Shown here: positions 3,759 to 58,026 of the stretch, piece after piece
Layout: each line of letters starts with the position of its first letter
How positions within the stretch are numbered: the stretch's first letter is position 1
Source of the DNA: Bacilli bacterium
GTDB taxonomy: Bacteria > Bacillota_I > Bacilli_A > RF39 > UBA660
DNA: 64,000 nucleotides
Reading direction: 5' to 3'
Assembly (NCBI GenBank): GCA_017964405.1
Contig: JAGCSA010000028.1
Location: forward strand, 2,282-66,281
Program-made: the position numbers and the translations under genes
The notes under the pieces: generated by a model
Seen by the model: the letters and a program-made list of their open reading frames with translations, nothing else
Told to the model about the DNA's origin: nothing
Databases searched by the model: none

Positions 3759-3783
3759 ATAAAAAAAGCTCTAAGAGCTTTTT
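3759..3783 (-). terminator. Rho-independent terminator after second acetate kinase
   Basis: aaagctct-aag-agagcttt hairpin plus T-run immediately 3' of the stop codon. Confidence 0.5.
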
Positions 3784-4981
3784 ATTTTTCACATACTAAT
3801 TGATAAGTATCACGAATAATCATAATTTCTTCATTCGTTGGAATAACATAAACAGGAATAGAAGATTTCTTTGTAGTAATCATTCCTTCATGAATCTCTT
3901 TAAATCCAGCAATCTTATCATTAATCTTCTTATCTACTTCAATACCAATTGGTTTTAATTTCGTAAGAATTGCTTCTCTTGTTTCACTACCATTTTCAAG
4001 GACACCAGCTGTCATAACCATAGCATCTACTTTACCGTCTAATTCAATATAGTATTCTGCAATAAAACGATTAATAATATCAACATACATATCCAAAGCA
4101 AGTTTTGCTCTTTCATCTCCAGCAGCAATTGCTTTTTCTACATCACGATTATCATTAAATCCACAGATACCTAATAAACCACTCTTCTTATTTAAATCAT
4201 TGGTAATTTCAGAAACATCTTTTCCTGTTTCTTTACAAACATATTCAATGATAGAAGGATCGATAGAACCACATCTAGTACCCATCATTAATCCATCTAA
4301 TGGGGTAAGACCCATCGTAGTATCATAACATTTACCATCTTTAATACAACTAATAGATGCTCCACTACCTACATGGCAAATAATTAAGTTTACTTTTTCT
4401 TTTCCAAGCATCTTCTTCATAGTCTCTGTAATATATTTATGACTCGTTCCATGGAATCCATATTTACGTACTCCGTACTTCTCATACCATTCATAAGGAA
4501 CTGGATACATATAATTAACAGGAGGCATTGTTTGATGGAATGCTGTATCAAATACTGCTACATTAGGAACTCCTGGTAAAGCTTTCTGCATTGCTTCAAT
4601 ACCAGCAAGATTTCCAGGATGATGAAGAGGTCCTAATTTAGTTAGATCTTTAATATCTTGTACAACTGTATCATCAATTAATACAGAATCACTATATTTT
4701 TCTCCTCCATGTAGAACTCTATGTCCTACTCCTTTAATTTCATCTAAACTCTTCACTGCTTTATGTTTTAAGATTTCCTCTAACATAACATCAACAGCTT
4801 CTGTATGATTCTTTAAATACTTTTCTCCTTTAATTTTTTCTCCATTGATTTTCGTATTCCAAAAAGAATCAGGAAAACCAATTTTTTCAATATAACCACT
4901 TATTAATACTTTCTCCTCAGGCATTTCAAATAATTGAAATTTTAAAGAACTACTACCTGCATTAACACATAAAAATTTCAT
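3782..4981 (-). CDS. Acetate/propionate kinase paralog
   Basis: MKFLCVNAGSSSLKFQLFEM; full-length ASKHA kinase clearly paralogous to 1503-2687. Confidence 0.85.
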   Translation of the reverse strand: MKFLCVNAGSSSLKFQLFEMPEEKVLISGYIEKIGFPDSFWNTKINGEKIKGEKYLKNHTEAVDVMLEEILKHKAVKSLDEIKGVGHRVLHGGEKYSDSVLIDDTVVQDIKDLTKLGPLHHPGNLAGIEAMQKALPGVPNVAVFDTAFHQTMPPVNYMYPVPYEWYEKYGVRKYGFHGTSHKYITETMKKMLGKEKVNLIICHVGSGASISCIKDGKCYDTTMGLTPLDGLMMGTRCGSIDPSIIEYVCKETGKDVSEITNDLNKKSGLLGICGFNDNRDVEKAIAAGDERAKLALDMYVDIINRFIAEYYIELDGKVDAMVMTAGVLENGSETREAILTKLKPIGIEVDKKINDKIAGFKEIHEGMITTKKSSIPVYVIPTNEEIMIIRDTYQLVCEK

Positions 4982-5070
4982 ACACACATCTCCTTTTCAT
5001 AACACACTTAAAGTACCAAAGAAACCTAAAAAAGTCAATAAAATCCAAGGATTTCTCTCATCAATTTTCT

Positions 5071-33995: not shown

Positions 33996-34069
33996 ATTAA
34001 TGAATCTATGATAAAATGTTAGTATAGGTGAGAGTTATGATATTAGAAATACAATGCAGTAGTGTAGAA

Positions 34070-35329
34070 ATGAACAGTATTATGTATATTGTAAAAAGTA
34101 TAATGACGACTTTAATGATAATTGCTCCTATATTAGCCATTATATCTCTTTCAATCCTACTAGTCAGAAAAGTAATGAAACCGGATGAAGAAAAATCAAC
34201 TAAGAAGATTAAAAATGTTTTTTTAGCACTCGCAATCTTATTCTTTATCCCAACAATCATGAATGTATTAATGTATGTATTAGGAGATTCTACCGATATT
34301 AGTAGTTGTTATACAACAGCTCAAAAAATAGATCCGAATAGTAATTATATTCCAATTGAAGACGAAAAAAATAATGCCATTGTTAATGCAGATGATTTCT
34401 ATGATGGATATCCACATCAATTAGATTTTTCTTGTAAAAGTAAAGAAATACAAGCAAACTTCTCTTGTGAAACCATCTACATTGTAGAAAGACATTATAA
34501 AGAATTTAATTATTACACCAAACAGCAAGTCATCGCAGGATATGGAGGATTTGATCATTGGATCAAGGCATTAAGAGGATACTTTGAAGAATACTATATG
34601 AAAGATCCAAAAGAAGTAACAAAAGCAAAAGACTTTCAAAAAATATCCGAATATGTATTTGGTTTAATGTATATTCATGGATTTGATTATTATAATGGAA
34701 CAACAATGGATAACTTTGATGATGGAACGAAATATTGTAAATGGGGCGGAAAATGTATCTATCTAAAAGATATTGCAGAAGCGAAAAGAATTGCCGCTGA
34801 AAAAGGAGAAGAACCAAAAATCGATTATCCTGTTGGTTCTGAAGATGCTTTCTATCCAGGAACCATGATCTATGGAGATAACGGTTCTATGAATGGAAAA
34901 AGATTTGATCAAGGAATCTCTGGAATGAACATGACGACCAACTGTAATAATTCAGTCGATATGGTCTACTATAAAGCAAAAATACTAGGAACAAAAGAAA
35001 GACCTTATTCTTCTGCAGACTATATGGCACAAGCAAGAGACTCTAAAAACAAAATTGTAACGAGTTTCAGTGATGCACAAATTGGAGATATCATTCATTT
35101 CTTTGAAGTACCAGTCGATCCCGGAAATCCATCTACATGGCAAGGATGGGGACATGTTGCCTATATCGGAGAAATAGATTACGAAAAAGGAATCATCACT
35201 GCTTATGATGGAGGAAGCTACTTCACCAGTAATCGAAATCATAAATGGACCTTCAGTAGAAATAATACGACATCTTCCCTATTTGGATTCGAAGGATGGG
35301 CTATTATTCATCTAGTAGATTTAAAATAA
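34070..35329 (+). CDS. Membrane-anchored protein with possible papain-fold (CHAP/NlpC-like) C-terminal domain
   Basis: Two N-terminal TM helices; C-terminal Cys (TTNCNNSVD) and His (GWGHVAYIGE) with hydrolase-like spacing; start codon uncertain. Confidence 0.35.
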   Translation: MNSIMYIVKSIMTTLMIIAPILAIISLSILLVRKVMKPDEEKSTKKIKNVFLALAILFFIPTIMNVLMYVLGDSTDISSCYTTAQKIDPNSNYIPIEDEKNNAIVNADDFYDGYPHQLDFSCKSKEIQANFSCETIYIVERHYKEFNYYTKQQVIAGYGGFDHWIKALRGYFEEYYMKDPKEVTKAKDFQKISEYVFGLMYIHGFDYYNGTTMDNFDDGTKYCKWGGKCIYLKDIAEAKRIAAEKGEEPKIDYPVGSEDAFYPGTMIYGDNGSMNGKRFDQGISGMNMTTNCNNSVDMVYYKAKILGTKERPYSSADYMAQARDSKNKIVTSFSDAQIGDIIHFFEVPVDPGNPSTWQGWGHVAYIGEIDYEKGIITAYDGGSYFTSNRNHKWTFSRNNTTSSLFGFEGWAIIHLVDLK

Positions 35330-35487: not shown

Positions 35488-36231
35488 ATGAAATTGAATA
35501 GTAGAGAAACACAAATTCTTTCAATTGTTATAGCCGCATGGGGACTGTTTTTTGTAGGAAGTGGAACCTTCATGAGCCAAAGCAAAAAAACAATGACAAA
35601 AAACACCTACACAATTGATGTATCCGCAAAACAAATATCACAAGTACAAGCAAAGAAAAACGAAGTGATATTAAAGGATCTTACAGTTGAGGAAGGAAAA
35701 CCAATTAGTGCAAACGTTAAAGATTATTTAGAAAATCCTGATCAAATAACAGATACCATGTTAAATCTTTTATCCAAAGGATTAGATACATCTGCTGTTA
35801 ATGTGAATCAACCAGGAACATACACTTATTCTATTACATGCAAAAAGAAGATTTACCAAGCAAAAATCAATGTAGTCGCAAAAGTATTACCAAAAGTAAA
35901 TATTACATTAAAAGAAAAGAATATGCCTACAACAGGTACCATTTCAAGAAATATAAGAGACTATGTTTATGAAGAAATAACAGATGAAGTATATTACAAT
36001 ATGATTCTAGATTTAAAAGAAGTAATTGCTCATCAAAATATACCTGGAAGATATAAATATTCGATTACTTATAATGATGTTACCTATTATGGAGACTTCA
36101 TTATCCATGAACCAGTAGAAACAGCAAATACCAATATTGTATGTCCTACAGGAGCAACACAAGATCCTAATAATAATACTTGTATCTGCCAAGTAGGAAA
36201 CTACAATCCTGAAACAAAAGAATGTGAATAA
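35488..36231 (+). CDS. Exported/membrane-anchored protein with Cys-rich C-terminus
   Basis: N-terminal hydrophobic anchor; C-terminal CPTGATQDPNNNTCICQVGNYNPETKECE. Confidence 0.4.
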   Translation: MKLNSRETQILSIVIAAWGLFFVGSGTFMSQSKKTMTKNTYTIDVSAKQISQVQAKKNEVILKDLTVEEGKPISANVKDYLENPDQITDTMLNLLSKGLDTSAVNVNQPGTYTYSITCKKKIYQAKINVVAKVLPKVNITLKEKNMPTTGTISRNIRDYVYEEITDEVYYNMILDLKEVIAHQNIPGRYKYSITYNDVTYYGDFIIHEPVETANTNIVCPTGATQDPNNNTCICQVGNYNPETKECE

Positions 36232-37882: not shown

Positions 37883-38067
37883 CTCAAAAAATATTATAAC
37901 ATAGTAATCTTTTTTTTCTAAGGAAAAAAAGCCCTAAAAATAGTTTTTTTCTATAAGGATTTTTAATAATTCAAATCCAATTCTTCCCACATATCATAAA
38001 ACCACGATTTGAAAGAAAAAAGTCTTTTCTATATAATCATTTCCGTTAAGAAAAAAGGAGGAATCAT

Positions 38068-39471
38068 ATGAAAAAAAAGATCATTTTCTTAATCACACTA
38101 TTGACAATTATCTTAGTAGGAAAGACAGTCCATGCAGAAGAATATACATTCTATGAAGCAGAATATCTAGATAAAATGTATATGAACAAGTATGAGTATG
38201 CAACAAACACTATCTATTATCAGAGAGCAAGACTCTTTCGAAATAGTCAAACGAAAGAAATTGCATATTGTATGGAACCATTACGGTTCTTCCAAGAAGG
38301 AAGTATCTATACGAGAACCAATGCTCCTAGTACTCTATCAGAAGAAAAGCTAAATCGAATCAAAAAGATTGCTTACTTCGGATGGAGATATAAAGATCAT
38401 TATGATGCATCCTGGTATGCTGTCGCACAAATGATGATTTGGAGAGAATCGAGTTCTGATATTGGAGACTACTACTTCACAGATACCTTAAATGGTCAAA
38501 GAACAAATGCTTTTGATTATCAAATGGATGAAATCAATCAATTAATCGAATCTTATGATCGAGAAATTCCAGTCGAGAATCAAACCATTACTCTAGTGGA
38601 AGGAATGACAAAAGAAATATCGATAGGAGATACTCTCGATTTTTATACAACTGATAATTCAGAAGTCACATTAGAAAATGGAGTAATCAAAATTCATCCA
38701 TTAGAAGAAGGAGAATACACGATTACCCTTCATAGAATCCAAGAAATCGTACATGGAATGCCTATGGAGATTTATGAATCAGAAACGAGTCAAAATATGA
38801 TTCAAAGAGGAGATTTAGATCCTAAAGAAGTCTCTTTTAAAATAAAAGTCATCCAAAACCATATAGAGATTCATAAAACAGATGAAGAAACAGATACTCC
38901 CCAGGGAGATGCTAGTCTAGATGGAGCTCTATTCGAATTATACGATGAAGAAGGAAATCTATATGATACGATTGAAATCATCCAGCAAACTGGAATTCTT
39001 ACTAGTATCCCATTCGGAACTTATACATTAAAAGAAGTGTCTCCAGGAATCGGATATGAATTAAACAAACAAGAATATACATTTACTCTTTCAGAAGAAA
39101 ATCCAAACTATGAAACAACCATCTCCAACAAGGTAATCAAAAAGAAAATCATCCTTGAAAAAACCTATGGAGAAGAAAACAAACCAGAAGAAAAAATAGA
39201 TTTTCAAATCTGGAAACAAGAAGAATTACTAGATACCATTACAACCGATGAAGAAGGAAAAGCAGAAATCATTCTACCCTATGGGATCTATATCATCAAA
39301 CAAGCCAATACAACAGAAGGATATGCTTTATTAGAACCATTCACCATCATCATAGAGAACTCTGAAGAAGAAATAATTTCCTTACATGACTTCAAAATAC
39401 CAGTACCAGATACATCATCTATCAGTATTCTTCAATATATTCTTCATACAATTGTGATGATTCTATGTTAA
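38068..39471 (+). CDS. Surface adhesin: thioester domain + two CnaB/prealbumin-fold domains + non-canonical sorting signal
   Basis: Signal peptide; AYCMEP thioester-type Cys motif; two FELYDEEGNL...GTYTLKEV / KAEIILPYGIYIIKQ CnaB-like units; C-terminal IPVPDTSS + hydrophobic tail. Confidence 0.55.
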   Translation: MKKKIIFLITLLTIILVGKTVHAEEYTFYEAEYLDKMYMNKYEYATNTIYYQRARLFRNSQTKEIAYCMEPLRFFQEGSIYTRTNAPSTLSEEKLNRIKKIAYFGWRYKDHYDASWYAVAQMMIWRESSSDIGDYYFTDTLNGQRTNAFDYQMDEINQLIESYDREIPVENQTITLVEGMTKEISIGDTLDFYTTDNSEVTLENGVIKIHPLEEGEYTITLHRIQEIVHGMPMEIYESETSQNMIQRGDLDPKEVSFKIKVIQNHIEIHKTDEETDTPQGDASLDGALFELYDEEGNLYDTIEIIQQTGILTSIPFGTYTLKEVSPGIGYELNKQEYTFTLSEENPNYETTISNKVIKKKIILEKTYGEENKPEEKIDFQIWKQEELLDTITTDEEGKAEIILPYGIYIIKQANTTEGYALLEPFTIIIENSEEEIISLHDFKIPVPDTSSISILQYILHTIVMILC

Positions 39472-40019
39472 AGAAAGTATTTTCCTTACTCTGTATCGGA
39501 ATGATGCTAGTAACAATCACAACCATCATGAAAATCAGTACAGAAGAAGCAATCATTCACACGATTCCCATACAATATCCAGAAAAAATAGCGAAAACAA
39601 AAACAATCCAAGTAGAACAACCAATCGGAAGAATTATCATTCCTAAGATTCAAATCAATCAATCGTTATATGATATCAATAGTCCCAAAAACAACATAGA
39701 AGAAAACATAACTATTCTAAAAGAATCTACTTTTCCAGATCAAGAAAACAGTCTCTTATTCATTGCAGCTCATTCTGGAAATACAAAAGTAGCTTTCTTT
39801 CAAAATCTTGATCAATTACAAATAGGAGATGAGATTCAGATACTCTATCAAAATCAAGAATACGAGTACAACATCATTGATATCTACGAACAAGAAAAAA
39901 ATGGCTATATCAGTGGAATGAGGCAAAAAACAAAAAGACAACTCATCTTAACAACGTGTTGTCCCAATAAAGATAATTGTCAATTAATCATTAATAGTAT
40001 AGAAAAAGAGTCTCATTAA
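39465..40019 (+). CDS. Sortase family transpeptidase
   Basis: N-terminal anchor; LFIAAHSG His region; LILTTCCP (TLxTC active site). Confidence 0.65.
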   Translation: MLKKVFSLLCIGMMLVTITTIMKISTEEAIIHTIPIQYPEKIAKTKTIQVEQPIGRIIIPKIQINQSLYDINSPKNNIEENITILKESTFPDQENSLLFIAAHSGNTKVAFFQNLDQLQIGDEIQILYQNQEYEYNIIDIYEQEKNGYISGMRQKTKRQLILTTCCPNKDNCQLIINSIEKESH

Positions 40020-41266
40020 GACTCTTTTATTAATATTCTCTTTGCTTCTTCAAACTGTGTATCAAAAGCATTGGGTTCTACATAAAATTCAGGGCTCTGT
40101 TCTACAACAACATCGGGAACAACCCCTATTCCTGTTACACTCTTTCCTTTCGGAGACAACCATTTCTCAATCGTAAATTTCATACTAGAACCATTACTGA
40201 AAGAAACAGTCTTTTGAACATTTCCTTTTCCATAACTATTGGTTCCCACAATCGTTGCCTTTTTATGGTCTTGAAAACAAGCAGCAACGACTTCTGCCGA
40301 AGATGCAGTTTCTCCATTGATTAAAACAACCATTGGATAATCCAAAGTCTGATTATTGAGAGAATAAACCTTCTTCCTAACTCCATTACTCTCGATTTGA
40401 TAAAGAACGGTTTTTTTAGGGAAAAAGCGACTCAAAATATTCTTAGCTTGTACTAAATGTCCTCCCGGATTATTTCGAATATCTAATATCAAAGAATCCA
40501 TTCCTTCCTTTTCTAATCTCTTCAATACTTTCTCAAATTGAGTATAAAAATGACTTGTAAAAATAGAAATACGAATATAACCAATCTTATGATCATCTTC
40601 TTCAATAATTTGTCCTAGTACGGTTTCAGCCTCTATTTTTTGTCGTTCAACAGAAAGTGTTAACTCTTCTTCTCCTCTTTGAACAACAAGCTCTAAAGAA
40701 GACCCAACATCTCCTTCTACTAATTTCTGTAATTCACCCGAATATATTCCCTTACAACTATGTCCATCTATACTGATAACTAGATCATTGATTTGAACAC
40801 CTGCCTTCTTCGCAGGACCATTCTCTAAAACCGATATCACACGATTATACTCTCCATCAAATTCAACAGTAATACCAATTCCTACATATTCTCCATCAAC
40901 AGATTCATTAAAACTACTAGTAGAATCAGGATCTAAGAAAGAAGAATAAGGATCTTCTAAAGAAGAAACCATTCCCTTAATCGCAGATTCAGCCAATTGA
41001 CTCTCGTCAACCTCTTCATAATAGTTATCCACAATATTATTATAGGCACTGACAATTTCTCCTAAATTAGTATTAGAACGTACTCTACTTAAATTACTAT
41101 TACCATACGTAATCATATAACCAATAATCACACCAAAAATAACAGAAATAAGAATCATCACAATAACTTCAAATAAAGAGAATTGTGAATCATTTTCCAT
41201 TCCACTTAAAAAGAACTGTTTCTTTTTCTTGTTATTTTTCTTTTTCTTCTTTTTATTCATAAACAC
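40016..41266 (-). CDS. S41 C-terminal processing peptidase with PDZ domain
   Basis: VLINGETASSAEVVA serine motif; SYGKG; N-terminal TM. Confidence 0.85.
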   Translation of the reverse strand: MFMNKKKKKKNNKKKKQFFLSGMENDSQFSLFEVIVMILISVIFGVIIGYMITYGNSNLSRVRSNTNLGEIVSAYNNIVDNYYEEVDESQLAESAIKGMVSSLEDPYSSFLDPDSTSSFNESVDGEYVGIGITVEFDGEYNRVISVLENGPAKKAGVQINDLVISIDGHSCKGIYSGELQKLVEGDVGSSLELVVQRGEEELTLSVERQKIEAETVLGQIIEEDDHKIGYIRISIFTSHFYTQFEKVLKRLEKEGMDSLILDIRNNPGGHLVQAKNILSRFFPKKTVLYQIESNGVRKKVYSLNNQTLDYPMVVLINGETASSAEVVAACFQDHKKATIVGTNSYGKGNVQKTVSFSNGSSMKFTIEKWLSPKGKSVTGIGVVPDVVVEQSPEFYVEPNAFDTQFEEAKRILIKES

Positions 41267-44233: not shown

Positions 44234-46516
44234 TTAATTTTTCTTAAATGCTCTTCTAGTTCTCTCTTCTTTTGTTTTAATTTTAACAGCCTGATTAATC
44301 GCATCGGAATCTCGAAATTGAGTCTCATGGATTTTTTCAATAACCGTTAAATCCACTTTCTTTGTTTCCTTAGAGGCACTTTTTACACATAATCGCAAAC
44401 GATCTCCAAGATAATAGTTTTGTTCCCCATCTAAAGAAACCAAAGAATAACTTTCTTCACTATAAACATAATCTCCCTTTAAATCCCATACACGTACAGT
44501 AGCTTCTGCTAGGTTATCAAATTGTACAACCATACATTCATTGGAAAGACCGATAACCGTTGCTTCACACTCTTCTCCAATATGATGAGACATCATATCA
44601 GCAAACTGCATACGGAATACTTCTTGCTCTAAATCATCTGCCACTTTTTCCGTATGAGTCACTCTCTCTGCAATCTCAGGAAGTCTAGAAATCCATTTTT
44701 TTCTTTGAACCAATCCTGGATCTGGTCGAAAGACACAGTCCCAAGAAATATCCTGATTAATTTTATCACCATATCTTCTAGCTGGAGATGTTCCCTGCAT
44801 GTATTCATCTTCTGCCAATCCATTATGTCCCACATTCACTTCACTATATTTGGCACGTGATTGTGTCTTGATTAATTCTGTTAATAAGAAACTTGATAAT
44901 CTTCCACAATTAGAAACATGAGAAATAAGTTTTTGGAAAGCAGCATGATTGGATGCTAATTCTTCTGCATCATATCCATGAAAAGGAAGACCAATGGCAT
45001 CCAACATTTCTAAATACTTCTTTAATTTATCAACATTTGGTGCTTCATGAACACGATAAAGACATGGAATACCATGTTTCTGAAAGAATTTAGCTCTGGT
45101 AACATTAGCAATTAACATAAATTCTTCAATAATGTTTTCCGCAACATCTTGTGTACGAACACCAATATCTAACATATGACCATTCGGTCCATAAATACCA
45201 CTCGGTTCAGGTCGATTAAATTCATAAGCTCCGGCAGCCATTCTCTTATCATGCAGAATTTTAGCCAAATCTCTCATAACCTGTAGTGTTTGTTCATAAG
45301 ATTGATATTCTGTAGGAATATCTCCCCCTTTTAAGATTTGATTCACGGTATCATAATTCATTTTTAATTTAGAACGAGTAACAGTAGGAACATAACGGTA
45401 ATTTACTACTTTTCCTTCTGGAGTAATCTCTAAAATATCTGATATTGTCAAACGATCTTTATCTTGATTTAAAGAACCAATTTGATTGGCAATTTTACGA
45501 GGATAATTAGGAAGTACAATTCCACCAGGATAATAACTATTACCTTTACGGAATCCATCTCGATCAAGAGGAGATCCATAAGGAACTAAAGAACTAATAT
45601 CAATAATATCTACTTCTAAAACATAGTTTCCTCTTTCATTCTTATAACAACTAATGGCATCATCCATATCTTTTGTCGTAATACCATCTAAAGTAATCGT
45701 TTCATTTTGGGTACGATCTTCTCTTCCAATACGATCAACATCTCTTACTTCATCGATAATATGCTCTAGTTGTTCTAAAGATTCATTACTAAATTCATTA
45801 TCTACCCCTAATTTAAATGCTTCCCATAGAATATCTTCATTGGGATCATCTTTATGGTTAAATACTCTTACAATAGAAGCCGTATAAAAATTGGGAGCTG
45901 TTTGTTCCTCTAAAGAAACAGCAACTCTTTGTCCCTCAATCGCTTCCCCTTTTAAAGCAATGGTAATGGATTGTTTTTTCTTATCAATAGGACGTACAAA
46001 ATAACTAGAACCAATACAATAAACTTCTCCTGGAATATATTCTAGATTTCGATCTAAGACCTTAACAACCTTAATACCCTGAGTACCACCAATATCAATT
46101 AATACAAAATCTCCATCAATAGCACCATTCGTATTTTCTTTATGAACTTCATACTTTTCATTATTAACAACTAATTGACCATCCCGATCTACATAAGAGG
46201 TTGTAACAGATACTTTTCCACGACCATCTCGATTTCCATAAAATCTACCTTTTCGAAAAGAAGTTTTGGAAAAAGCAATATAATTCTCATTCGGAGTCAT
46301 ATAGATCTCATATTGAGTTACCCCTTCTCGAATCAGTTCCAATAATTCTTTCTTTTCTTCTGCCGTTAAAATAACATCGCTATGCAATTCTTCTGATTTC
46401 AACTTTTCAATTCTAGAAACAATTTTTTCAAAAGAAGCAGCCTTCTTTTCCTTTTTTAATGCTAGTTCTAGATAATGTTTCATTCCACTCATCCCCCAAT
46501 ACGTATACCTTAACAC
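44234..46516 (-). CDS. RNB-domain exoribonuclease (RNase II/R family paralog)
   Basis: ITLDGITTKDMDDAIS RNB motif; cold-shock/S1-like flanks. Confidence 0.75.
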   Translation of the reverse strand: MLRYTYWGMSGMKHYLELALKKEKKAASFEKIVSRIEKLKSEELHSDVILTAEEKKELLELIREGVTQYEIYMTPNENYIAFSKTSFRKGRFYGNRDGRGKVSVTTSYVDRDGQLVVNNEKYEVHKENTNGAIDGDFVLIDIGGTQGIKVVKVLDRNLEYIPGEVYCIGSSYFVRPIDKKKQSITIALKGEAIEGQRVAVSLEEQTAPNFYTASIVRVFNHKDDPNEDILWEAFKLGVDNEFSNESLEQLEHIIDEVRDVDRIGREDRTQNETITLDGITTKDMDDAISCYKNERGNYVLEVDIIDISSLVPYGSPLDRDGFRKGNSYYPGGIVLPNYPRKIANQIGSLNQDKDRLTISDILEITPEGKVVNYRYVPTVTRSKLKMNYDTVNQILKGGDIPTEYQSYEQTLQVMRDLAKILHDKRMAAGAYEFNRPEPSGIYGPNGHMLDIGVRTQDVAENIIEEFMLIANVTRAKFFQKHGIPCLYRVHEAPNVDKLKKYLEMLDAIGLPFHGYDAEELASNHAAFQKLISHVSNCGRLSSFLLTELIKTQSRAKYSEVNVGHNGLAEDEYMQGTSPARRYGDKINQDISWDCVFRPDPGLVQRKKWISRLPEIAERVTHTEKVADDLEQEVFRMQFADMMSHHIGEECEATVIGLSNECMVVQFDNLAEATVRVWDLKGDYVYSEESYSLVSLDGEQNYYLGDRLRLCVKSASKETKKVDLTVIEKIHETQFRDSDAINQAVKIKTKEERTRRAFKKN

Positions 46517-47744: not shown

Positions 47745-48128
47745 TTAGCTGATATAATTGAAGTTTGTTCCAACACCAGTACCACCACTAGAAGGAGCAG
47801 CACTTGCAGTTGAACCAGATCCAAGACTTTCAGCAGCAGCTCTTAAAGCAGCTTCCTCTTCATCATATGCACTACAAATATTAGCAATACTACTAATAAA
47901 ATTTGCATGTGTTGAACCAAAATCAGTAAACATTTGATCTACTGTTTCGAAAGCAGCAAAATAAGTATCAGCTCCGGAACTAATCCAAGAACCTTTAAGA
48001 GTTGCAGCTTCATTACGAATCTGTGTAAATAGAGAATCTACTTCCGCATAAATATTGTTTATTTCTGTAGCTACTTGACCAACTGAATCTGTTTCTACAT
48101 CAATATTATTATCACCAATAAATGTCAT
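47745..48128 (-). CDS. ESAT-6/WXG100-like small protein
   Basis: 127 aa helical; LKGSWISSGADTYFAAFE turn; Ser/Gly-rich tail. Confidence 0.5.
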   Translation of the reverse strand: MTFIGDNNIDVETDSVGQVATEINNIYAEVDSLFTQIRNEAATLKGSWISSGADTYFAAFETVDQMFTDFGSTHANFISSIANICSAYDEEEAALRAAAESLGSGSTASAAPSSGGTGVGTNFNYIS

Positions 48129-48142
48129 CCGAAATCACTTCC

Positions 48143-48433
48143 CTATACCATTTTAGATAAAGCATCACTTAAAGCTTTATCAAATCCAGATGCTCTATCA
48201 CTTACAAATTTAGCATGTTTCTCTAATTCTGTATTGATTTTCTTTGCATCTGCACTAAAAGAATTATACTTTGTAACTAATGCTTGTCCAGCTTTATCTT
48301 TCCAAGAAGATGTTACTGAACTCATCTTAGTATCCATTTCAACAATTTTAGGTCCAAGTTCTCCAACTAAGCTCGTAATCTTAGCAGCATAACCAGCTGC
48401 CGCAGCAGTATCTACTTGTAAAGAAGAACCCAT
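48143..48433 (-). CDS. ESAT-6/WXG100-like small protein
   Basis: 96 aa; SSWKDKAGQA turn. Confidence 0.5.
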   Translation of the reverse strand: MGSSLQVDTAAAAGYAAKITSLVGELGPKIVEMDTKMSSVTSSWKDKAGQALVTKYNSFSADAKKINTELEKHAKFVSDRASGFDKALSDALSKMV

Positions 48434-49322: not shown

Positions 49323-51587
49323 TTATTGATCCATACCGATGCCTTGTAACCATTCTTTATCCATGAATGGTGCAGTAGCTTCTTCTAATTCACCCTCTTC
49401 ATGAGTTTCTTCAACAGTCTCAGTTTGTTCTAATGGGTTATTAGCAAATTGTACTTCATCAACATCGTTACTATCATCGAAGTAATCATCCATAGAGATT
49501 CCAGCATATACAAAGTCAGCATCATCAACATTTTCAAAACATTGATTAATAACATTATACATATTGTAATCATCAATAGCATTCTTACCATCAATAATCA
49601 TTGTAATGAACAATAAGTAGTCGATAATCTTATGTTTCTCATCAAACATAGAATATCCGTAAAGCTTAGCTAACTCTTCTTCGCAAGAAACACCTTCTTT
49701 AACAGCTTTATCAACTTTCTTAGAATGTTCTCTTAATTCACTAGCAAGAATCTTAAACTTAGAATTCTTGAATGTTTCAATTTCATCTTCAGAGAATCCA
49801 ACTTTCTTCATTAATTTAGAAACAATAGCTTGATAATCAGGCCCTAATGCTTCCCAATCTTCTGGAGTAAAGTGGATAACACTTAACTTCGTAGCAGCAA
49901 GGATTCCTCCACCAGCAGCAGCACTACCACCAGCAATACCAGCAGCAGCAATAATTCCTGCACTTGCTTTATTCGTATTGATTCCTTGAGTAGTTCCACC
50001 CATATGTGGTGCAACACCAGATGCTAATTTAGCAACCCCCTTACCGATGGCATCTGCAACTCCTGTAGCAGCACCAGCAGCTGTAGCTAAACCTTCTTTA
50101 GCAGCTCCAGCAACGGCAGCAGCAACGCCTCCACCTTCACCGGTCTTAACTCCTCCACCAGTAGTTCCACCACCAGGTTTCGTTGGATCTTCAGCTCCAG
50201 GAAGTCCTCCACCAATACTTGTACCAGGTGTCGTAGCAGGAGGATTGGTTGGATTGGTATCTCCACCAGGTTGTTCTCCAGTTGGTTCTCCACCTGTAGG
50301 TTCTTCTCCAGTAGGAACTTCACCAACAGGTTGAGGTGTTTCAGTAGAAGGTTGTTGTGGAAGTAAATCATGAATAATCTTTTGATATTCTTCCTCAGTA
50401 ATTTCACCCTTCTTCAATTTTTCATATGCATCACTAATTTGTTGCATTGCTTTTGCATAATCTTCTGGACTCATTTGACCAGTTCTAACACTTTCAAGCA
50501 TTGAATTAATATCAGCCAAAGCTTGAGCATATGTTTCTTGACTAACCTTACCAGAGGCAACTCCCTCAAGTAATTGATTAATATCACTCATTGTTTGATG
50601 ATATAGGTTATCATCAATCTTGCCATTCTTTAATAGATCCATTGCACCATTCATGGTGTCTAATGTAGCCTTATAAGTATCTTGATCGATTTGACCATTC
50701 TTTAATAAGGTTGCAGCATCTTCAATGTTATCCATTGTAGCAGCGAAAGATTCATCACTCATCTTATCAAGTGCTAAGCAATCCATAGCTTTATCCATCG
50801 TATCAAGAGTTTGTTTATAAGTATCCTCATCCATCTTACCATTTGCAACAGCGGCAGCTGCAGCATCCATAGCATCAAGGAACTTCGTATAAGCTTCTTC
50901 ACTCATCTTACCAGAGTCAACTAAACTCATAGCACGTTTCAACGCATCAACAGCCTTAGCATACGTTTCATCAGAAATCTTACCATCTTTTAAGATATCC
51001 ATTAAACTACTTAAAGTATCAATTGTATGAGCATACGTTTCATCTTTAATCTTCTTAGCTTTTAATAAAGCAATAGCAGCAGCAATGGCATTCAATGTCT
51101 TAGCATAAGATCCTTCACTCATCTTACCGTCATCACGAAGGCTCTTTGCCTTATCTTTGGCATCACATGTCTTAGCCCAAGACTCATCACTCATCTCATC
51201 AGGTTTTTCCTCATCACCCTTCTTACCAGGGCCATCAGGCGTAACCGGAGTAACACCTCCACCACCATTTGGTGTCTTGCTCTTACCAGCACCATCAATA
51301 TTTTCATTATCTTGTTCAATTAAAGCAGCAATATAAGCTCTAGCAGCTTCAATATTGGTTCTAGCGTCTGAAACAATTTTATCGGTAAAGGCAGCTAATG
51401 TTGAAAAGTATTGAATATCATATTCAGCACCTAAAGAACCGGTAGCTCCTTGGCTATTACCAGATCCATAATAATCTTCCAATGTGTTGCAAATTGTTTC
51501 TACATTACTTACTGCTTGTTCAGCATCAGCATAAATGATTTTAATATCAGCCATATTATTAGTCGAATAGACAAGTTCGACTAGCAC
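49323..51587 (-). CDS. Large secreted/effector-like protein: WXG/LXG-like N-domain + 24-aa tandem repeats + Gly/Ala-rich hydrophobic segments + acidic C-terminal domain
   Basis: 754-aa ORF (start GTG 51587 or ATG 51551); helical N-terminus; ~10.5 repeats GKMSxExYxKxLDxMxxAxxLLKx; PT/G-rich linker; GGGVAAAVAGAA and IIAAAGIAGGSAAAGGGILAA segments. Confidence 0.6.
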   Translation of the reverse strand: MLVELVYSTNNMADIKIIYADAEQAVSNVETICNTLEDYYGSGNSQGATGSLGAEYDIQYFSTLAAFTDKIVSDARTNIEAARAYIAALIEQDNENIDGAGKSKTPNGGGGVTPVTPDGPGKKGDEEKPDEMSDESWAKTCDAKDKAKSLRDDGKMSEGSYAKTLNAIAAAIALLKAKKIKDETYAHTIDTLSSLMDILKDGKISDETYAKAVDALKRAMSLVDSGKMSEEAYTKFLDAMDAAAAAVANGKMDEDTYKQTLDTMDKAMDCLALDKMSDESFAATMDNIEDAATLLKNGQIDQDTYKATLDTMNGAMDLLKNGKIDDNLYHQTMSDINQLLEGVASGKVSQETYAQALADINSMLESVRTGQMSPEDYAKAMQQISDAYEKLKKGEITEEEYQKIIHDLLPQQPSTETPQPVGEVPTGEEPTGGEPTGEQPGGDTNPTNPPATTPGTSIGGGLPGAEDPTKPGGGTTGGGVKTGEGGGVAAAVAGAAKEGLATAAGAATGVADAIGKGVAKLASGVAPHMGGTTQGINTNKASAGIIAAAGIAGGSAAAGGGILAATKLSVIHFTPEDWEALGPDYQAIVSKLMKKVGFSEDEIETFKNSKFKILASELREHSKKVDKAVKEGVSCEEELAKLYGYSMFDEKHKIIDYLLFITMIIDGKNAIDDYNMYNVINQCFENVDDADFVYAGISMDDYFDDSNDVDEVQFANNPLEQTETVEETHEEGELEEATAPFMDKEWLQGIGMDQ

Positions 51588-55914: not shown

Positions 55915-58026
55915 TTAACTTACCTTTCTAACAATTTCAAAATCAACTGTTTTTTCTTCTTTATTAGCTCTAACTACTTTGACAACAACTCTTTCTCCAA
56001 TCGAATACTTCATATGACTCTTTTCTCCTGTAAGAGTTAAGTGTTCTTCATCAAAATGATAGAAATCATCCAACTCTCTTAAAGGAACTAACCCTTCAAT
56101 TAAGTTATCTAATTCTACAAACATACCAAAACTAGTAATAGAAGAAATCATACCTTCAAAAGTCTCCCCAATATGTTTTTCCATATATTCAGCCATCTTC
56201 ATATCATCGACTTCTCTCTCACAATCAACAGATGCTCTCTCTCTTTCAGAAGAATGTTCTGCAATACCAGGAAGTTTTTCTTCCCATTTATGAACCGTCT
56301 CCATATCAGCATGACCATCAAATAAATACGTATGAAGTAAACGATGAACCGTCGTATCTGGGAATCGACGTATCGGAGAAGTAAAATGCGTATAACAATC
56401 ACTTGCTAAACCATAATGTCCTAAGTTATCAGGACTATAAATAGCCTTCTTCATACTTCTTAATAACAAATTAGAAAGAATCTTATATTCTGGTTTATCC
56501 TCTAATTGAAAAACAATATCTTGAACAAACTTAGGACTTAAGTCCTTCAAATCTCCATTGACATGATATCCAAGTCCACTGACAAATCCTAAGAAACTAC
56601 GAATCTTATCTTCCTCTGGAGTTTCATGAATACGATAAATAAAAGGAAGATTCATAAAATAAATATGAGTTGCCACACACTCATTAGCAGCAATCATAAA
56701 GTCTTCTATTAACTTTTCTCCTGTACCACGGTCTCTTAATACAACATCCGTAGGAACACAGTTCTCATCTACTAAGATTTTAGCCTCATCAACAGCAAAA
56801 TCAATATAACCTCTCTTAATCTTTGCCTTTCTTAAAATATCCGCTAACTCTGCCATTGTTTTTAAGTCATATACATAAGGCTCATATTCATCAGGAACCT
56901 GATCTTTTTCTAAGATACTATTAACTTTCTTATAAGTCATTTGAATTCGAGAACGAATGACACTTGGGAAAATCTCATAATCCAATTGTTTTCCTGCTCC
57001 ATCGAACTCCATCACACATGAGATTGCTAAACGATCTACATTTGGATTTAAAGAACAAATTCCATTGGATAATTCATGAGGAATCATAGGAATAACACGG
57101 TCTACTAAATAAACACTCGTTCCCCTCTCTTCAGCTGCTTCATTTAAAGCAGTGCCCTCTCTTACATAATAACTGACATCTGCAATATGAACTCCTAATT
57201 GATAATGACCATTCGATAAAATTTTAATACTAATGGCATCATCAATATCTTTTGTATCATCTCCATCAATCGTAAAAATAGTCTCTTCTCTTAAATCTCT
57301 ACGATCTTTCATCTCTTCTTCTGAGACTTCCATCGGAATATGTTTTACTTCATTCTTTACTTCATCAGAAAATTCTACAGGAATATTATATTTATAAATA
57401 ATAGAAAGAATATCCACTCCTGGATCATTTTGATGTCCCAAGATTTCCATAACTCTTCCTTCATATCTTCCAGAACTATTCAATTTCTTCTCTAAACGAA
57501 CAACTACTTTATGCCCGTCTACAGCATTTAAACTCTTTCCTTTTGGAATCTCAATCATTAACTTAATCTTATTATCATCTAATTGAATATGACCAATTCC
57601 CTTATCATCAAATGTAATAACACCAACAAAATTGGTCATCTTACGAGCAAGAATCTTTAAAACTCTACCCTCTAAACGATCCAAATTCATTTTACTCGTT
57701 ATTTCAACTAAAACAACATCATCATGAATAGCCCCATTCATATTCTCTTGCGATACATAAATATCATCATCTAAATTTTCTACTTCTACAAATCCAAAAC
57801 CCTTTTTATTAACACGCATGATACCTTTTCGAAGATGACTATTCTCTAGTAACATATACTTATTCTTATTAGAGTGATAAATCAAAACCTCTTCTTCTAA
57901 TTGTTTCAAATCCTTTAATAAAATTTCTAATTCTTCTGCTGTCGATATTTCTAAGGATTCTTGCAATTCATCAATATCTAAAGCACGATCTGTATTTCTA
58001 AGTACATTGAGAATACTCTCTCTCAT
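55915..58026 (-). CDS. rnr: Ribonuclease R
   Basis: FTIDGDDTKDIDDAIS RNB motif; C-terminal S1 domain; rnr-smpB-ssrA synteny. Confidence 0.9.
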   Translation of the reverse strand: MRESILNVLRNTDRALDIDELQESLEISTAEELEILLKDLKQLEEEVLIYHSNKNKYMLLENSHLRKGIMRVNKKGFGFVEVENLDDDIYVSQENMNGAIHDDVVLVEITSKMNLDRLEGRVLKILARKMTNFVGVITFDDKGIGHIQLDDNKIKLMIEIPKGKSLNAVDGHKVVVRLEKKLNSSGRYEGRVMEILGHQNDPGVDILSIIYKYNIPVEFSDEVKNEVKHIPMEVSEEEMKDRRDLREETIFTIDGDDTKDIDDAISIKILSNGHYQLGVHIADVSYYVREGTALNEAAEERGTSVYLVDRVIPMIPHELSNGICSLNPNVDRLAISCVMEFDGAGKQLDYEIFPSVIRSRIQMTYKKVNSILEKDQVPDEYEPYVYDLKTMAELADILRKAKIKRGYIDFAVDEAKILVDENCVPTDVVLRDRGTGEKLIEDFMIAANECVATHIYFMNLPFIYRIHETPEEDKIRSFLGFVSGLGYHVNGDLKDLSPKFVQDIVFQLEDKPEYKILSNLLLRSMKKAIYSPDNLGHYGLASDCYTHFTSPIRRFPDTTVHRLLHTYLFDGHADMETVHKWEEKLPGIAEHSSERERASVDCEREVDDMKMAEYMEKHIGETFEGMISSITSFGMFVELDNLIEGLVPLRELDDFYHFDEEHLTLTGEKSHMKYSIGERVVVKVVRANKEEKTVDFEIVRKVS

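What the first reader, a model, noticed from the sequence alone, without database searches (positions are those of the whole stretch)
38068..40019. Thioester-domain adhesin with non-canonical VPDTS sorting signal and dedicated sortase
The 467-aa secreted protein carries an AYCMEP motif typical of internal Cys-Gln thioester adhesin domains (TQXA/TED), followed by two CnaB/prealbumin-fold stalk domains. It ends in ...KIPVPDTSSISILQYILHTIVMILC: a hydrophobic helix but no canonical LPxTG and no basic tail. The next gene overlaps by 7 nt and encodes a small sortase (TLxTC as LILTTCC). That sortase probably recognises this unusual (I/V)PDTS pentapeptide.
Basis: partly seen in the sequence, partly recalled or inferred. 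Interest (0 to 1): 0.6.

Follow-up and report, generated by a model that had tools for sequence, protein, structure and literature searches.

The report
Thioester adhesin with arginine-less dedicated sortase
A gut bacterium encodes a self-crosslinking "covalent glue" surface protein next to its own anchoring enzyme; the pair is conserved in over 200 uncultured species, and the enzyme lacks an arginine considered part of every sortase active site.

Summary
Window 38068-39471 encodes a secreted class II thioester-domain (TED) adhesin with two CnaB/SpaA stalk domains. It ends in VPDTS plus an 18-residue hydrophobic tail with no basic residues. A 184-aa sortase gene (39465-40019) overlaps it by 7 nt.

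Comparative data support a dedicated enzyme-substrate pair:
- 79 of 80 species-level loci carry exactly one [VI]P[NDE]T-tailed TED adhesin directly upstream of this sortase type.
- The chromosomal position is fixed (fhs | adhesin-sortase | ctpA).
- Three in-frame adhesin-sortase fusions exist.

The real motif is VP(N/D)T. Position 5 is variable and almost never Gly. The motif resembles known pilin-type signals (VPDTG of RrgC, IPNTG of BcpB).

In the whole sortase clade (at least 314 clusters at 50% identity), an invariant Gln replaces the catalytic Arg (His103-Cys165-Gln173). The enzyme is closest to class C sortases but has no lid and no C-terminal anchor.

The host is walled (FemAB, MurD, VanY), probably of order RF39. 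The most likely mechanism is cleavage after Thr449 and attachment to a peptidoglycan cross-bridge. This is inferred, not shown. I classify it as a new variant of a known kind.

The parts
38009..38037 (+). Promoter-like site TTGAAA-17 nt-TATAAT (11 of 12 matches) upstream of the adhesin gene
   Evidence: This is a consensus match only. The number of such sites in the region is not above the shuffled expectation, so it is suggestive, not proof.
38057..38061 (+). Ribosome-binding site GGAGG, 6 nt before the adhesin ATG
   Evidence: Read directly from the sequence.
38068..39471 (+). Adhesin gene (467 aa): a class II TED 'TIE' protein
   Evidence: NCBI names the identical protein 'Cys-Gln thioester bond-forming surface protein'.
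38068..38136 (+). Sec signal peptide, residues 1-23 (MKKKIIFLITLLTIILVGKTVHA | EE)
   Evidence: AF2 predicts a helix at 2-17. A23 is 91% conserved. The cleavage site follows the A-x-A rule; this is inferred.
38137..38853 (+). Class II thioester domain (about residues 24-262), with Y67-C68-M-E, the helper motif A-Q121-MMI-W125, and the bond-forming Q242 (SQNMI)
   Evidence: Pfam TED. Alignment to SaTIE-TED 6fx6 places C68 on Cys296 and Q242 on Gln467. The fold matches 6fx6 (TM 0.66 on the target) and 6fwv. C68, Q121, W125 and Q242 are all 100% conserved.
38269..38271 (+). Codon of Cys68, the predicted thioester Cys
38791..38793 (+). Codon of Gln242, the predicted thioester Gln
38854..39135 (+). 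CnaB/SpaA stalk domain 1 (about residues 263-356). Predicted isopeptide K270-N354 with E323
   Evidence: PF17802 covers residues 265-355. K270 and E323 are 100% conserved and N354 is 94%. It parallels BaTIE Lys297/Asn373.
39136..39402 (+). CnaB/SpaA stalk domain 2 (about residues 357-445). Conserved K365 and D441; Q412 sits where domain 1 has E323
   Evidence: Second PF17802 stretch. Aligned to BaTIE. Conservation. It parallels BaTIE Lys384/Asp464.
39403..39417 (+). Sorting motif V446-P-D-T449-S450. Family consensus is K-I-(P/K/E)-V-P-(N/D)-T-x
39415..39468 (+). C-terminal hydrophobic segment SSISILQYILHTIVMILC (18 aa, no K/R)
   Evidence: AF2 predicts a helix at 454-466. In the family, the tail after Thr is 16-27 aa (median 19), and K/R occurs in the last 6 residues in only 38 of 119 sequences.
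39465..40019 (+). Sortase gene (184 aa), overlapping the adhesin stop by 7 nt
39468..39533 (+). N-terminal membrane anchor of the sortase (residues 2-23)
   Evidence: AF2 helix at 2-23, pLDDT about 92.
39624..40007 (+). Sortase catalytic β-barrel (residues 54-181)
   Evidence: PF04203 covers residues 57-170. Foldseek's best matches are class C sortases, E 1e-10, TM about 0.63.
39771..39773 (+). Codon of His103 (AAHSG), the predicted catalytic His in the loop after β4
   Evidence: Invariant. Topology.
39957..39959 (+). Codon of Cys165 (LTTC), the predicted catalytic Cys at the end of β7
   Evidence: Invariant. Aligned to the catalytic Cys of solved sortases.
39981..39983 (+). Codon of Gln173, the second residue of β8, occupying the position of the canonical catalytic Arg
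   Evidence: Invariant in 120 of 120 homologues and in nearly all of the top 150 representatives. Aligned to the Arg of CpSrtD 4d70 and to SpySrtA R216. Topology.
40004..40028 (.). 10-bp palindromic hairpin spanning the convergent stop codons of the sortase and ctpA; possible bidirectional terminator
   Evidence: Consensus scan only.

Best explanation
This is a translationally coupled two-gene operon for a covalently anchored, covalently binding adhesin.

1. The 467-aa precursor is exported by its Sec signal peptide.
2. Outside the cell it folds into a class II thioester domain (Cys68-Gln242 thioester) held on two CnaB stalk domains. These are probably locked by Lys-Asn and Lys-Asp isopeptide bonds.
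3. A short C-terminal hydrophobic helix holds the precursor in the membrane.
4. The co-translated, membrane-anchored minimal sortase recognises V446-P-D-T449, which directly follows the last stalk strand.
5. Cys165 attacks the Thr449 carbonyl and the 18-residue tail is released.
6. The acyl-enzyme is resolved by the amino group of a peptidoglycan/lipid II cross-bridge, built by the FemAB enzymes encoded in the same window. The adhesin is thereby fixed on the thin wall.
7. The exposed thioester can then form a covalent bond with an amine on a host, mucus or partner-cell ligand.

The sortase works with His103, Cys165 and Gln173 instead of the usual His-Cys-Arg.

Shown here: gene structure, domain identity, conservation of all the named residues, pairing of the two genes, and a walled host.
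Inferred: the cleavage site, the acceptor, the formation of the cross-links, and the catalytic competence of the Gln enzyme.
For: Adhesin identity:
- Pfam TED plus two SpaA domains.
- Family profile against BaTIE (E 5e-32) and SaTIE-TED (E 6e-14).
- AF2 model with pLDDT 91.8; the best fold match is full-length BaTIE (E 8e-25).
- C68 and Q242 align with the confirmed SaTIE Cys296/Gln467 pair and are invariant.

Sorting signal:
- V446 98%, P447 100% and T449 100% conserved, followed by a non-conserved hydrophobic tail.

Pairing with the sortase:
- In 79 of 80 species-representative loci, exactly one [VI]P[NDE]T protein lies immediately upstream of the sortase, and no LPxTG-type protein lies within ±6 kb.
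- Synteny orf247/fhs/adhesin/sortase/ctpA/ybbR/cdaA is conserved across most of the 80 loci: 40 carry the full eight-gene order and 77 have fhs and/or ctpA directly flanking the pair.
- The genes overlap by 7 nt.
- Three in-frame adhesin-sortase fusions have a coherent membrane topology.
- Distant mobile-element relatives keep the same pairing, with EVPDTS or EVPNTS signals.

Sortase:
- PF04203 and TIGR01076 score above their cut-offs.
- Confident β-barrel model that matches solved sortases.
- His103 and Cys165 are invariant.

Walled host with cross-bridges:
- Two FemAB genes, MurD, a MurJ-like flippase, Glu racemase, VanY and NlpC/P60 hydrolases are in the window.
- RF39 is predicted to be thin-walled (PMC10868615).
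Against: - No biochemical evidence exists for any step.
- The catalytic Arg, described as required for transpeptidation in SaSrtA (PMC5148588), is absent. No Arg is conserved anywhere in the family, so activity cannot be assumed.
- The tail lacks the positively charged stop-transfer residues of a canonical sorting signal and is short.
- The motif type and the closest structural relatives point to pilin-specific (class C) enzymes, whose normal acceptor is a pilin Lys and not lipid II.
- Whether the genome has another sortase could not be checked from one 64-kb window.
Confidence: 0.6

Rival explanations
1. Pilus-like or protein-protein ligation. The sortase behaves like the class C enzymes it most resembles. 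It joins Thr449 to a Lys side chain of another adhesin copy or of another surface protein, forming a short fibre or heterodimer. It does not attach the adhesin to peptidoglycan.
For: - The closest sequence and fold relatives are pilin-polymerising class C sortases.
- The family has the class C-like TC(S/T)P signature.
- The motif resembles pilin signals VPDTG and IPNTG.
- The motif abuts the last CnaB strand with no wall-spanning linker, as in pilins.
- Conserved lysines exist: K41, K359 and K443.
Against: - There is no second pilin-like gene and no other sorting-signal protein in the window or within ±6 kb in 80 loci.
- No YPKN-type pilin motif is conserved.
- An N-terminal TED is typical of tip adhesins, not of shaft subunits (established knowledge of Cpa-type pilins).
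- The sortase has no lid, which is the regulatory element of pilin sortases.
Confidence: 0.13
2. Inactive or non-transpeptidase sortase. Without the Arg the enzyme cannot catalyse transpeptidation. The adhesin simply stays membrane-anchored by its C-terminal helix, and the sortase-like protein serves as a chaperone or docking partner.
For: - The Arg is considered part of a required triad.
- HMM alignments to all solved sortases break off just after the Cys.
- No conserved Arg exists in the family.
Against: - His103, Cys165 and Gln173 are invariant across a clade of at least 314 clusters at 50% identity. The substrate's VPxT is also invariant while the tail behind it drifts. This pattern is expected for an active enzyme and its cleavage site, not for a decayed one.
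- The pair is retained in reduced genomes over more than 200 species.
Confidence: 0.1
3. Release protease or other acceptor. The enzyme cleaves after Thr449 but resolves the acyl-enzyme with water, shedding a soluble covalent adhesin, or with a non-peptidoglycan nucleophile such as a lipid or teichoic-acid amine.
For: - The short tail without a charge cluster and the altered active site could favour a different second half-reaction.
- RF39-type lineages are predicted to have thin or incomplete walls.
Against: - The window encodes FemAB cross-bridge enzymes and other wall genes.
- A thioester adhesin is only useful for adhesion if it stays fixed to the cell. This is inference.
Confidence: 0.08
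4. The anchoring chemistry is the same but the biological role differs. The adhesin mediates bacterium-bacterium contact (mating-pair formation or aggregation), as the class II TED adhesin of plasmid pLS20 does, and not host adhesion.
For: - Class II TED adhesins are needed for efficient conjugation in B. subtilis (PMC8092201).
- Distant Gln-type sortase/TED modules sit next to ParA/ParB, TraC-like and VirB4-like genes.
- The window-specific ORF 34028-35329 has weak similarity to conjugation membrane proteins.
Against: In this lineage the cassette lies between housekeeping genes with fixed synteny across most of 80 species loci, and no conjugation genes are adjacent.
Confidence: 0.09

Closest known systems
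BaTIE (B. anthracis BA5258, PDB 6fwv) and SaTIE (PDB 6fx6): class II TED 'TIE' proteins
   Same: Same architecture: signal peptide, class II TED with β-sandwich insert, then CnaB isopeptide stalk domains. The thioester Cys/Gln and the isopeptide Lys/Asn and Lys/Asp positions align. These are the best sequence and fold matches.
   Different: Here the protein has only two stalk domains. There is no unstructured wall-spanning linker, whereas BaTIE has about 38 residues before LPATG. The signal is VPDTS instead of LPxTG, there is no basic tail, and the gene is paired with its own sortase instead of relying on a housekeeping SrtA.
Pneumococcal RrgC (VPDTG) with SrtC-3, and B. cereus BcpB (IPNTG) with its pilin sortase SrtD
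   Same: Sorting signals with V/I at position 1 and D/N at position 3 are read by a dedicated, co-encoded, class C-type sortase and not by SrtA (PMC11231552). The sortase here is closest to class C enzymes in sequence and fold.
   Different: Those signals end in Gly, belong to multi-pilin clusters, and their sortases have a lid, a C-terminal anchor and the catalytic Arg. Here position 5 is almost never Gly. There is a single substrate, no lid, no C-terminal anchor, and Gln replaces Arg.
S. pyogenes Cpa, a TED-bearing pilus tip adhesin with a VPPTG-type signal (recalled from memory; not tested here)
   Same: A thioester adhesin carrying a V-P-x-T signal that is handled by a dedicated sortase.
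   Different: Cpa has class I TEDs and is joined to a major pilin. No pilin partner is present here.
TIEpLS20, the class II TED conjugation adhesin of B. subtilis plasmid pLS20
   Same: A class II TED plus CnaB adhesin. Distant relatives of the present cassette lie in conjugative contexts.
   Different: TIEpLS20 has no sorting signal and is sortase-independent. The present protein has a conserved signal and an adjacent sortase, and it sits in a core chromosomal locus.

Membership tests
Class II thioester domain (TED) / TIE proteins | [YFL]-C-Φ-ζ motif carrying the bond-forming Cys | tested here: met
   Y67-C68-M69-E70. C68 is 100% conserved and aligns with SaTIE Cys296.
Class II thioester domain (TED) / TIE proteins | Bond-forming Gln in a Φ-Q-ζ-Φ-Φ motif on the strand after the β-sandwich insert | tested here: met
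   Q242 (SQNMI) is 100% conserved. It aligns with SaTIE Gln467 (6fx6 chain residue 218).
Class II thioester domain (TED) / TIE proteins | TQxxΦW helper motif | tested here: met
   A-Q121-M-M-I-W125. The family consensus is TQxMIW. Q121 and W125 are invariant.
Class II thioester domain (TED) / TIE proteins | Class II fold: TED head interrupted by a β-sandwich of about 75 residues | tested here: met
   The AF2 model (pLDDT 91.8) has β-strands at 173-262 between the helices and Q242. Foldseek hits 6fwv (E 8e-25) and 6fx6 (TM 0.66 on the target). The slipknot threading itself could not be inspected because no coordinates were available.
Class II thioester domain (TED) / TIE proteins | An actual Cys-Gln thioester, and Lys-Asn/Asp isopeptide bonds | not testable with these tools
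   This needs intact-mass spectrometry (a 17-Da loss per bond) or a crystal structure.
Sortase superfamily (PF04203, MEROPS C60) | Eight-stranded sortase β-barrel | tested here: met
   PF04203 scores 54.5 bits against a cut-off of 26.6. The AF2 model matches 135 PDB sortase chains at E <= 1e-3.
Sortase superfamily (PF04203, MEROPS C60) | Catalytic His after β4 and Cys in TLxTC at the end of β7 | tested here: met
   H103 (AAHSG) and C165 (LTTC) are invariant. Topology.
Sortase superfamily (PF04203, MEROPS C60) | Catalytic Arg at the start of β8 | tested here: not met
   Gln173 occupies this position. There is no Arg in the 19 residues after Cys165 and no conserved Arg anywhere in the family. 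The same holds in the top 150 of 1.84 billion representatives.
Class C (pilin-specific) sortase | Score above the NCBIfam class C model cut-off | tested here: not met
   NF033745 scores 58.1 bits against a cut-off of 160. All other class models (D, E, F, GN) also fall far below their cut-offs.
Class C (pilin-specific) sortase | N-terminal lid with a DP(F/W/Y) anchor motif | tested here: not met
   Residues 24-53 have no DP[FWY], no conservation and low pLDDT.
Class C (pilin-specific) sortase | C-terminal membrane anchor | tested here: not met
   The protein ends 4 residues after β8, which spans 172-180 of 184.
Class C (pilin-specific) sortase | Encoded in a cluster with a major pilin carrying a YPKN-type Lys | tested here: not met
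   There is a single substrate gene in the window and in 79 of 80 loci. No conserved pilin motif is present.
Canonical cell-wall sorting signal | LPXTG pentapeptide | tested here: not met
   The motif is VPDTS here. In the family it is VP(N/D)T-x, with Gly at position 5 in only 5 of 119 sequences.
Canonical cell-wall sorting signal | Hydrophobic segment after the motif | tested here: met
   The tail is 18 residues. The best 15-residue Kyte-Doolittle mean is about 2.0 here (my hand calculation) and the family median is 2.05. AF2 predicts a helix at 454-466.
Canonical cell-wall sorting signal | Positively charged C-terminal tail | tested here: not met
   There is no K/R after the motif in the window protein. 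Only 38 of 119 homologues have K/R in the last 6 residues. Mobile-element relatives do have KRKK or KKRKK tails.

The most novel reading that the evidence does not exclude
The sortase represents a large, undescribed class of sortases, found in RF39-type gut Bacilli and on some conjugative elements. The class is catalytically active with a His-Cys-Gln site instead of His-Cys-Arg. It has no lid and is specific for a VP(N/D)T-x signal on class II thioester adhesins. This would show that the 'universal' sortase Arg is dispensable, and it would provide an orthogonal ligation motif.
Probability: 0.45. Interest if true: 0.75.

Novelty: new variant of a known kind. Interest (0 to 1): 0.62.

Why it matters
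1. Sortase mechanism. The active-site Arg is treated as invariant and required. A clade of hundreds of sequence clusters, under clear purifying selection, has Gln there. This is a natural experiment on what that residue does, whether oxyanion or substrate positioning through hydrogen bonding or through charge. It is directly testable with Q173R and Q173A variants.

2. Tools. A small (about 135-residue), lid-less sortase with a non-LPXTG, non-Gly motif could be an orthogonal enzyme for protein ligation.

3. Biology of uncultured gut Bacilli. In RF39-type organisms with reduced genomes, this single adhesin-sortase pair is a core locus with a fixed chromosomal position. That makes it a prime candidate for how these abundant but uncultured symbionts attach covalently to host or partner surfaces. 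It also cautions that KEGG-based surveys may miss this divergent enzyme; one such survey scored related orders as lacking sortases (PMC10868615).

4. Evolution. The same module occurs on conjugative elements. This links chromosomal adhesion to the class II TED conjugation adhesins.

Tried and rejected
- I first took Q121 (AQMMIW) as the thioester partner. [quoted passage not shown]
- I considered that the host might be wall-less, because many relatives are labelled Tenericutes or Mollicutes. This was rejected: the window has FemAB x2, MurD, MurJ-like, MurI-like, VanY and NlpC/P60 genes.
- I considered a mobile-element origin for this copy. This was rejected for this lineage, given the fixed synteny across most of the 80 species loci, although distant relatives are on mobile elements.
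- An apparently truncated adhesin in L004 is only a scaffold gap, a run of N.
- Co-variation between motif position 3 (N or D) and sortase residues gave no clean signal. The maximum mutual information was about 0.3 bits, in variable columns.
- Rfam search of the operon and its 5' region found nothing relevant.
- PLSDB plasmids and INPHARED phages hold no Gln-type sortase. The only hit was a 32%-identical class D sortase on a C. baratii plasmid.
- Literature searches for VPNT or VPDTS sortase motifs and for Arg-less sortases found nothing. Only open-access text was searched.
- The afdb50 fold library was unavailable.
- Exact look-up of the adhesin in the contig index failed. The sortase look-up worked.
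- No model coordinates were available, so active-site distances (Q173 and K145 to C165) and Cys68-Gln242 proximity could not be measured.
Full report
**1. Checking the observation**

The adhesin is at 38068..39471 (+, 467 aa) and the sortase is at 39465..40019 (+, 184 aa). They overlap by 7 nt, ATGTTAA.

Pfam finds a thioester domain in the first protein (PF08341, residues 65-150, E 1.2e-7, 32.6 bits against a cut-off of 22). It also finds two SpaA/CnaB prealbumin-fold stretches (PF17802, E 1e-23). The second protein has a sortase domain (PF04203, E 1.3e-14).

The C-terminus reads KIPVPDTSSISILQYILHTIVMILC, with no LPxTG and no basic residue. The sortase carries LILTTCC. NCBI already names the identical proteins 'Cys-Gln thioester bond-forming surface protein' and 'sortase', from a 'Bacilli bacterium' MAG.

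The operon has these signals:
- a near-consensus promoter-like site, TTGAAA-17-TATAAT, at 38009-38037;
- a GGAGG ribosome-binding site at 38057-38061;
- a 10-bp hairpin across the convergent stop codons of the sortase and ctpA, at 40004-40028.

It is the only ORF in the 64-kb window with a sortase-type C-terminal signal.

**2. The adhesin**

The family profile (60 sequences) hits B. anthracis BaTIE (6fwv, E 5e-32) and the S. aureus SaTIE thioester domain (6fx6, E 6e-14). These are the founding class II TED structures (PMC6194298).

An AlphaFold2 model built on the family alignment is confident (mean pLDDT 91.8). Its best PDB match is full-length BaTIE (E 8e-25), and it matches SaTIE-TED with TM 0.66 on the target.

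The paper corrects a tempting mistake. The Gln in the TQxxΦW-like motif (Q121 in AQMMIW here) is a helper, not the bonding partner. In SaTIE the experimentally confirmed thioester is Cys296-Gln467. In the residue-by-residue alignment, these two positions (6fx6 chain residues 47 and 218) fall exactly on C68 and Q242. Both are 100% conserved in 119 homologues.

The two stalk domains carry the residues expected for isopeptide bonds:
- Domain 1 has K270, E323 and N354.
- Domain 2 has K365 and D441.
- These parallel BaTIE Lys297/Asn373 and Lys384/Asp464.

One oddity: domain 2 has an invariant Gln412 where domain 1 has the catalytic Glu323.

Residues 1-23 look like a Sec signal peptide ending in VHA (the cleavage site is inferred).

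**3. The sorting signal**

Across 119 non-identical homologues the C-terminus reads D-(Y/F/L)-K-I-(P/K/E)-V-P-(N/D)-T-x, followed by 16-27 residues (median 19) of poorly conserved hydrophobic sequence.

| Position | Residues (of 119) |
|---|---|
| 1 | Val 117 |
| 3 | Asn 104, Asp 15 |
| 5 | H, R, S, Y, K or N; Gly only 5 |

Only 38 have K/R in the last six residues. P447 and T449 are invariant and V446 is 98% conserved, in a family whose mean column identity is 53%.

The signal is therefore VP(N/D)T. The window's VPDTS is the minority Asp form, and its Ser is not part of the motif.

The motif follows the last CnaB strand (D441-F-K-I) with no linker, as in pilins. BaTIE, by contrast, has about 38 disordered residues before LPATG.

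The frequent '...LC' ending (43 of 119) is most simply explained by the conserved overlap of the adhesin stop with the sortase ATG (A-TGY-TAA). This is inference.

Related signals are known. VPDTG (RrgC) and IPNTG (BcpB) are read by dedicated pilin sortases (PMC11231552). I found no paper mentioning VPNT or VPDTS as a sortase motif.

**4. The sortase**

It has an N-terminal membrane helix (residues 2-23), about 30 unconserved residues, and a catalytic barrel of about 130 residues. The AF2 mean pLDDT is 89.6.

Class assignment:
- It passes the generic sortase models (PF04203 and TIGR01076).
- It fails every class-specific NCBIfam model. The best is class C at 58 bits against a cut-off of 160.
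- By fold it is closest to class C pilin sortases: A. oris SrtC1, C. diphtheriae SrtA and S. pneumoniae SrtC, with E about 1e-10 and TM about 0.63.
- It shares the class C 'TC(S/T)P' signature.
- It has no DP(F/W/Y) lid and no C-terminal anchor.

The most striking feature was not in the finding: there is no catalytic Arg. All 120 close homologues end with QL(I/V)LTTC(S/C)P-x5-Q-L-(I/V)-(I/V)-N. The invariant residues are H103, C165, Q173, K145, N76, S88 and D122, and no Arg is conserved anywhere.

Three lines of evidence place Q173 at the Arg position:
- Alignment. Q173 aligns with the Arg of C. perfringens SrtD (4d70). It also aligns with R216 of S. pyogenes SrtA (CTDIEATERIIV against CCPNKDNCQLII).
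- Truncated matches. Pfam, TIGRFAM and PDB local alignments all stop just after the Cys.
- Topology. In solved sortases the His follows β4, the Cys ends β7 and the Arg is the second residue of β8 (PMC5148588). In the model, β4 is 97-101 (then H103), β7 is 159-165 (C165 last), and β8 is 172-180 (Q173 second).

An exhaustive profile search of 1.84 billion cluster representatives found 314 clusters at E <= 1e-30 and 1116 at E <= 1e-10. None of the best 150 has Arg at this position. Nearly all have Gln, three have Tyr and one has Asn.

I could not measure active-site geometry because no coordinates were available. I found no publication describing an Arg-less sortase, but only open-access text was searched.

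**5. Evidence that the two genes work together**

A scan of one genome per GTDB species found relatives of the sortase in 212 genomes. All are uncultured gut MAGs labelled Bacilli, Tenericutes, Mollicutes or Erysipelotrichaceae, plus Ca. Faecimonas.

Of the 80 best loci:
- 79 have exactly one [VI]P[NDE]T-tailed protein of about 475-520 aa ending just upstream of the sortase. The motifs are VPNT 55, VPDT 19, IPNT 3, IPDT 1 and VPET 1.
- None has an LPxTG-type protein within ±6 kb.

The chromosomal context is orf247(+) fhs(-) adhesin(+) sortase(+) ctpA(-) orf193(-) ybbR(-) cdaA(-). It recurs in most of the 80 loci (the full eight-gene order in 40; fhs and/or ctpA directly flanking the pair in 77), so this is a vertically inherited core locus.

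Three independent in-frame fusions exist (P0024, P0254 and P0351). Each reads adhesin, VPNT, helix, sortase helix, sortase domain. This order is topologically coherent: out-to-in, then in-to-out.

Distant Gln-type sortases are again preceded by class II TED adhesins, with EVPDTS...KRKK or EVPNTS...KKRKK tails. These sit beside ParA/ParB, a giant SNF2 helicase, NikA-like, TraC-like and VirB4-like genes, meaning on mobile or conjugative elements. This recalls the class II TED conjugation adhesin of pLS20, which has no sortase signal (PMC8092201).

No member was found in PLSDB plasmids or INPHARED phages. A search for co-variation between N/D at motif position 3 and sortase residues was uninformative.

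**6. Host and acceptor**

The window encodes two FemAB-family enzymes, MurD, a MurJ-like flippase, a Glu racemase-like protein, EzrA, VanY and several NlpC/P60 hydrolases. The organism therefore makes peptidoglycan with interpeptide bridges.

Ca. Faecimonas, which carries the cassette, is GTDB order RF39, family CAG-611 (PMC8035907). RF39 is predicted to be thin-walled (PMC10868615). The samples are ruminant gut metagenomes. Assigning the window itself to RF39 is inference.

**7. Most likely mechanism**

The steps are: Sec export; folding and autocatalytic cross-linking of the TED and stalk; retention by the short C-terminal helix; recognition of VPDT by the co-translated sortase; attack by Cys165 on Thr449; and resolution by a lipid II or peptidoglycan cross-bridge amine. 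The result is a short, wall-fixed adhesin whose thioester can capture a ligand amine.

My confidence differs by step:
- adhesin identity, about 0.95;
- the sortase processes VP(N/D)T, about 0.75;
- peptidoglycan is the acceptor, about 0.5.

The rivals are pilus-like Lys ligation, an inactive sortase with a merely membrane-anchored adhesin, shedding or another acceptor, and a role in cell-cell contact instead of host adhesion.

**8. Comparison and novelty**

The adhesin is a new member of the class II TIE family, and NCBI annotation already recognises it. The signal is a variant of the pilin-type V/I-P-(D/N)-T-G signals, without the Gly and, in this lineage, without the basic tail.

The sortase meets the fold, His and Cys criteria of the superfamily. 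It fails the Arg criterion and all tested class C criteria except the TC(S/T)P signature. I therefore describe it as working like a sortase and being closest to class C, but I do not file it as a class C member.

Overall this is a new variant of a known kind. Its interest lies mainly in the Arg-to-Gln active site across a large clade, and in its status as a core locus of abundant uncultured gut Bacilli.

Noticed in passing
window 39981-39983 (sortase Gln173); P0121-P0386: The canonical sortase catalytic Arg is replaced by an invariant Gln throughout the clade, and no Arg is conserved anywhere in the family. Lys145 is invariant and might compensate.
   Followed up: yes
window 34028-35329 (+): This 433-aa ORF has an N-terminal membrane region weakly similar to conjugation pilin-like or pLS20_p028-type proteins (E about 1e-3). 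Its C-terminal part looks like a cell-wall hydrolase to my eye. It is absent from all 80 related loci, so it is a strain-specific insertion and possibly a remnant of a conjugative element.
   Followed up: partly
window 35488-36231 (+): A 247-aa membrane-anchored protein with a Cys-rich C-terminus and no family match. It is syntenic with the cassette, on the other side of fhs, in 63 of 80 loci. Function unknown.
   Followed up: partly
window 39301-39303 (adhesin Gln412): Stalk domain 2 has an invariant Gln where domain 1 and other CnaB domains have the catalytic Glu (E323), yet the Lys365/Asp441 pair is conserved. It is unclear whether and how an isopeptide forms there.
   Followed up: no
P0024, P0254, P0351; L092:7324-10896: These are in-frame adhesin-sortase fusion proteins. 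P0351 (1190 aa, about 7 CnaB domains, VPNTG plus a KKNK tail) lies directly upstream of TraC-like and VirB4/TraG-like conjugation genes.
   Followed up: partly
L089:3539-5660; L088:1-1042: Mobile-element copies of the module carry canonical basic tails (EVPDTS...KRKK and EVPNTS...KKRKK). They sit next to ParA/ParB, a 2517-aa SNF2-type helicase, and NikA-like and phage replication genes.
   Followed up: partly
L091:2-582 (NCBI GCA_016648395.1): A rare clade member has Tyr instead of Gln at the Arg position. It follows an ORF ending EVPNAG... without a hydrophobic tail, on a 1.8-kb contig. It is possibly degenerate or a contaminant in another organism's assembly.
   Followed up: no
window 47745-48433 and 49323-51587 (-): Two small WXG100-family genes lie near a 754-aa protein with no Pfam match, which suggests a type VII secretion-related locus.
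   Followed up: no
window 1503-2687 and 3782-4987 (-); 44234-46516 and 55915-58026 (-): There are two full-length acetate kinase paralogues, separated by a PrsW-type protease gene, and two RNB-family (RNase R/II-like) genes within 12 kb. This is notable for a presumably reduced genome.
   Followed up: no
window 1-64000: GC skew is negative across the whole window (-0.03 to -0.38) and most genes are on the minus strand. The adhesin-sortase operon is one of the few plus-strand units, so it probably runs against the direction of replication.
   Followed up: no
literature (PMC10868615) compared with loci L008-L087: A KEGG-orthology survey scored the related orders RFN20 and ML615J-28 as lacking srtA/B. 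This divergent Gln-type sortase fails all class-specific models, so it could be missed by such surveys. I did not determine which GTDB orders the 212 positive genomes belong to.
   Followed up: no
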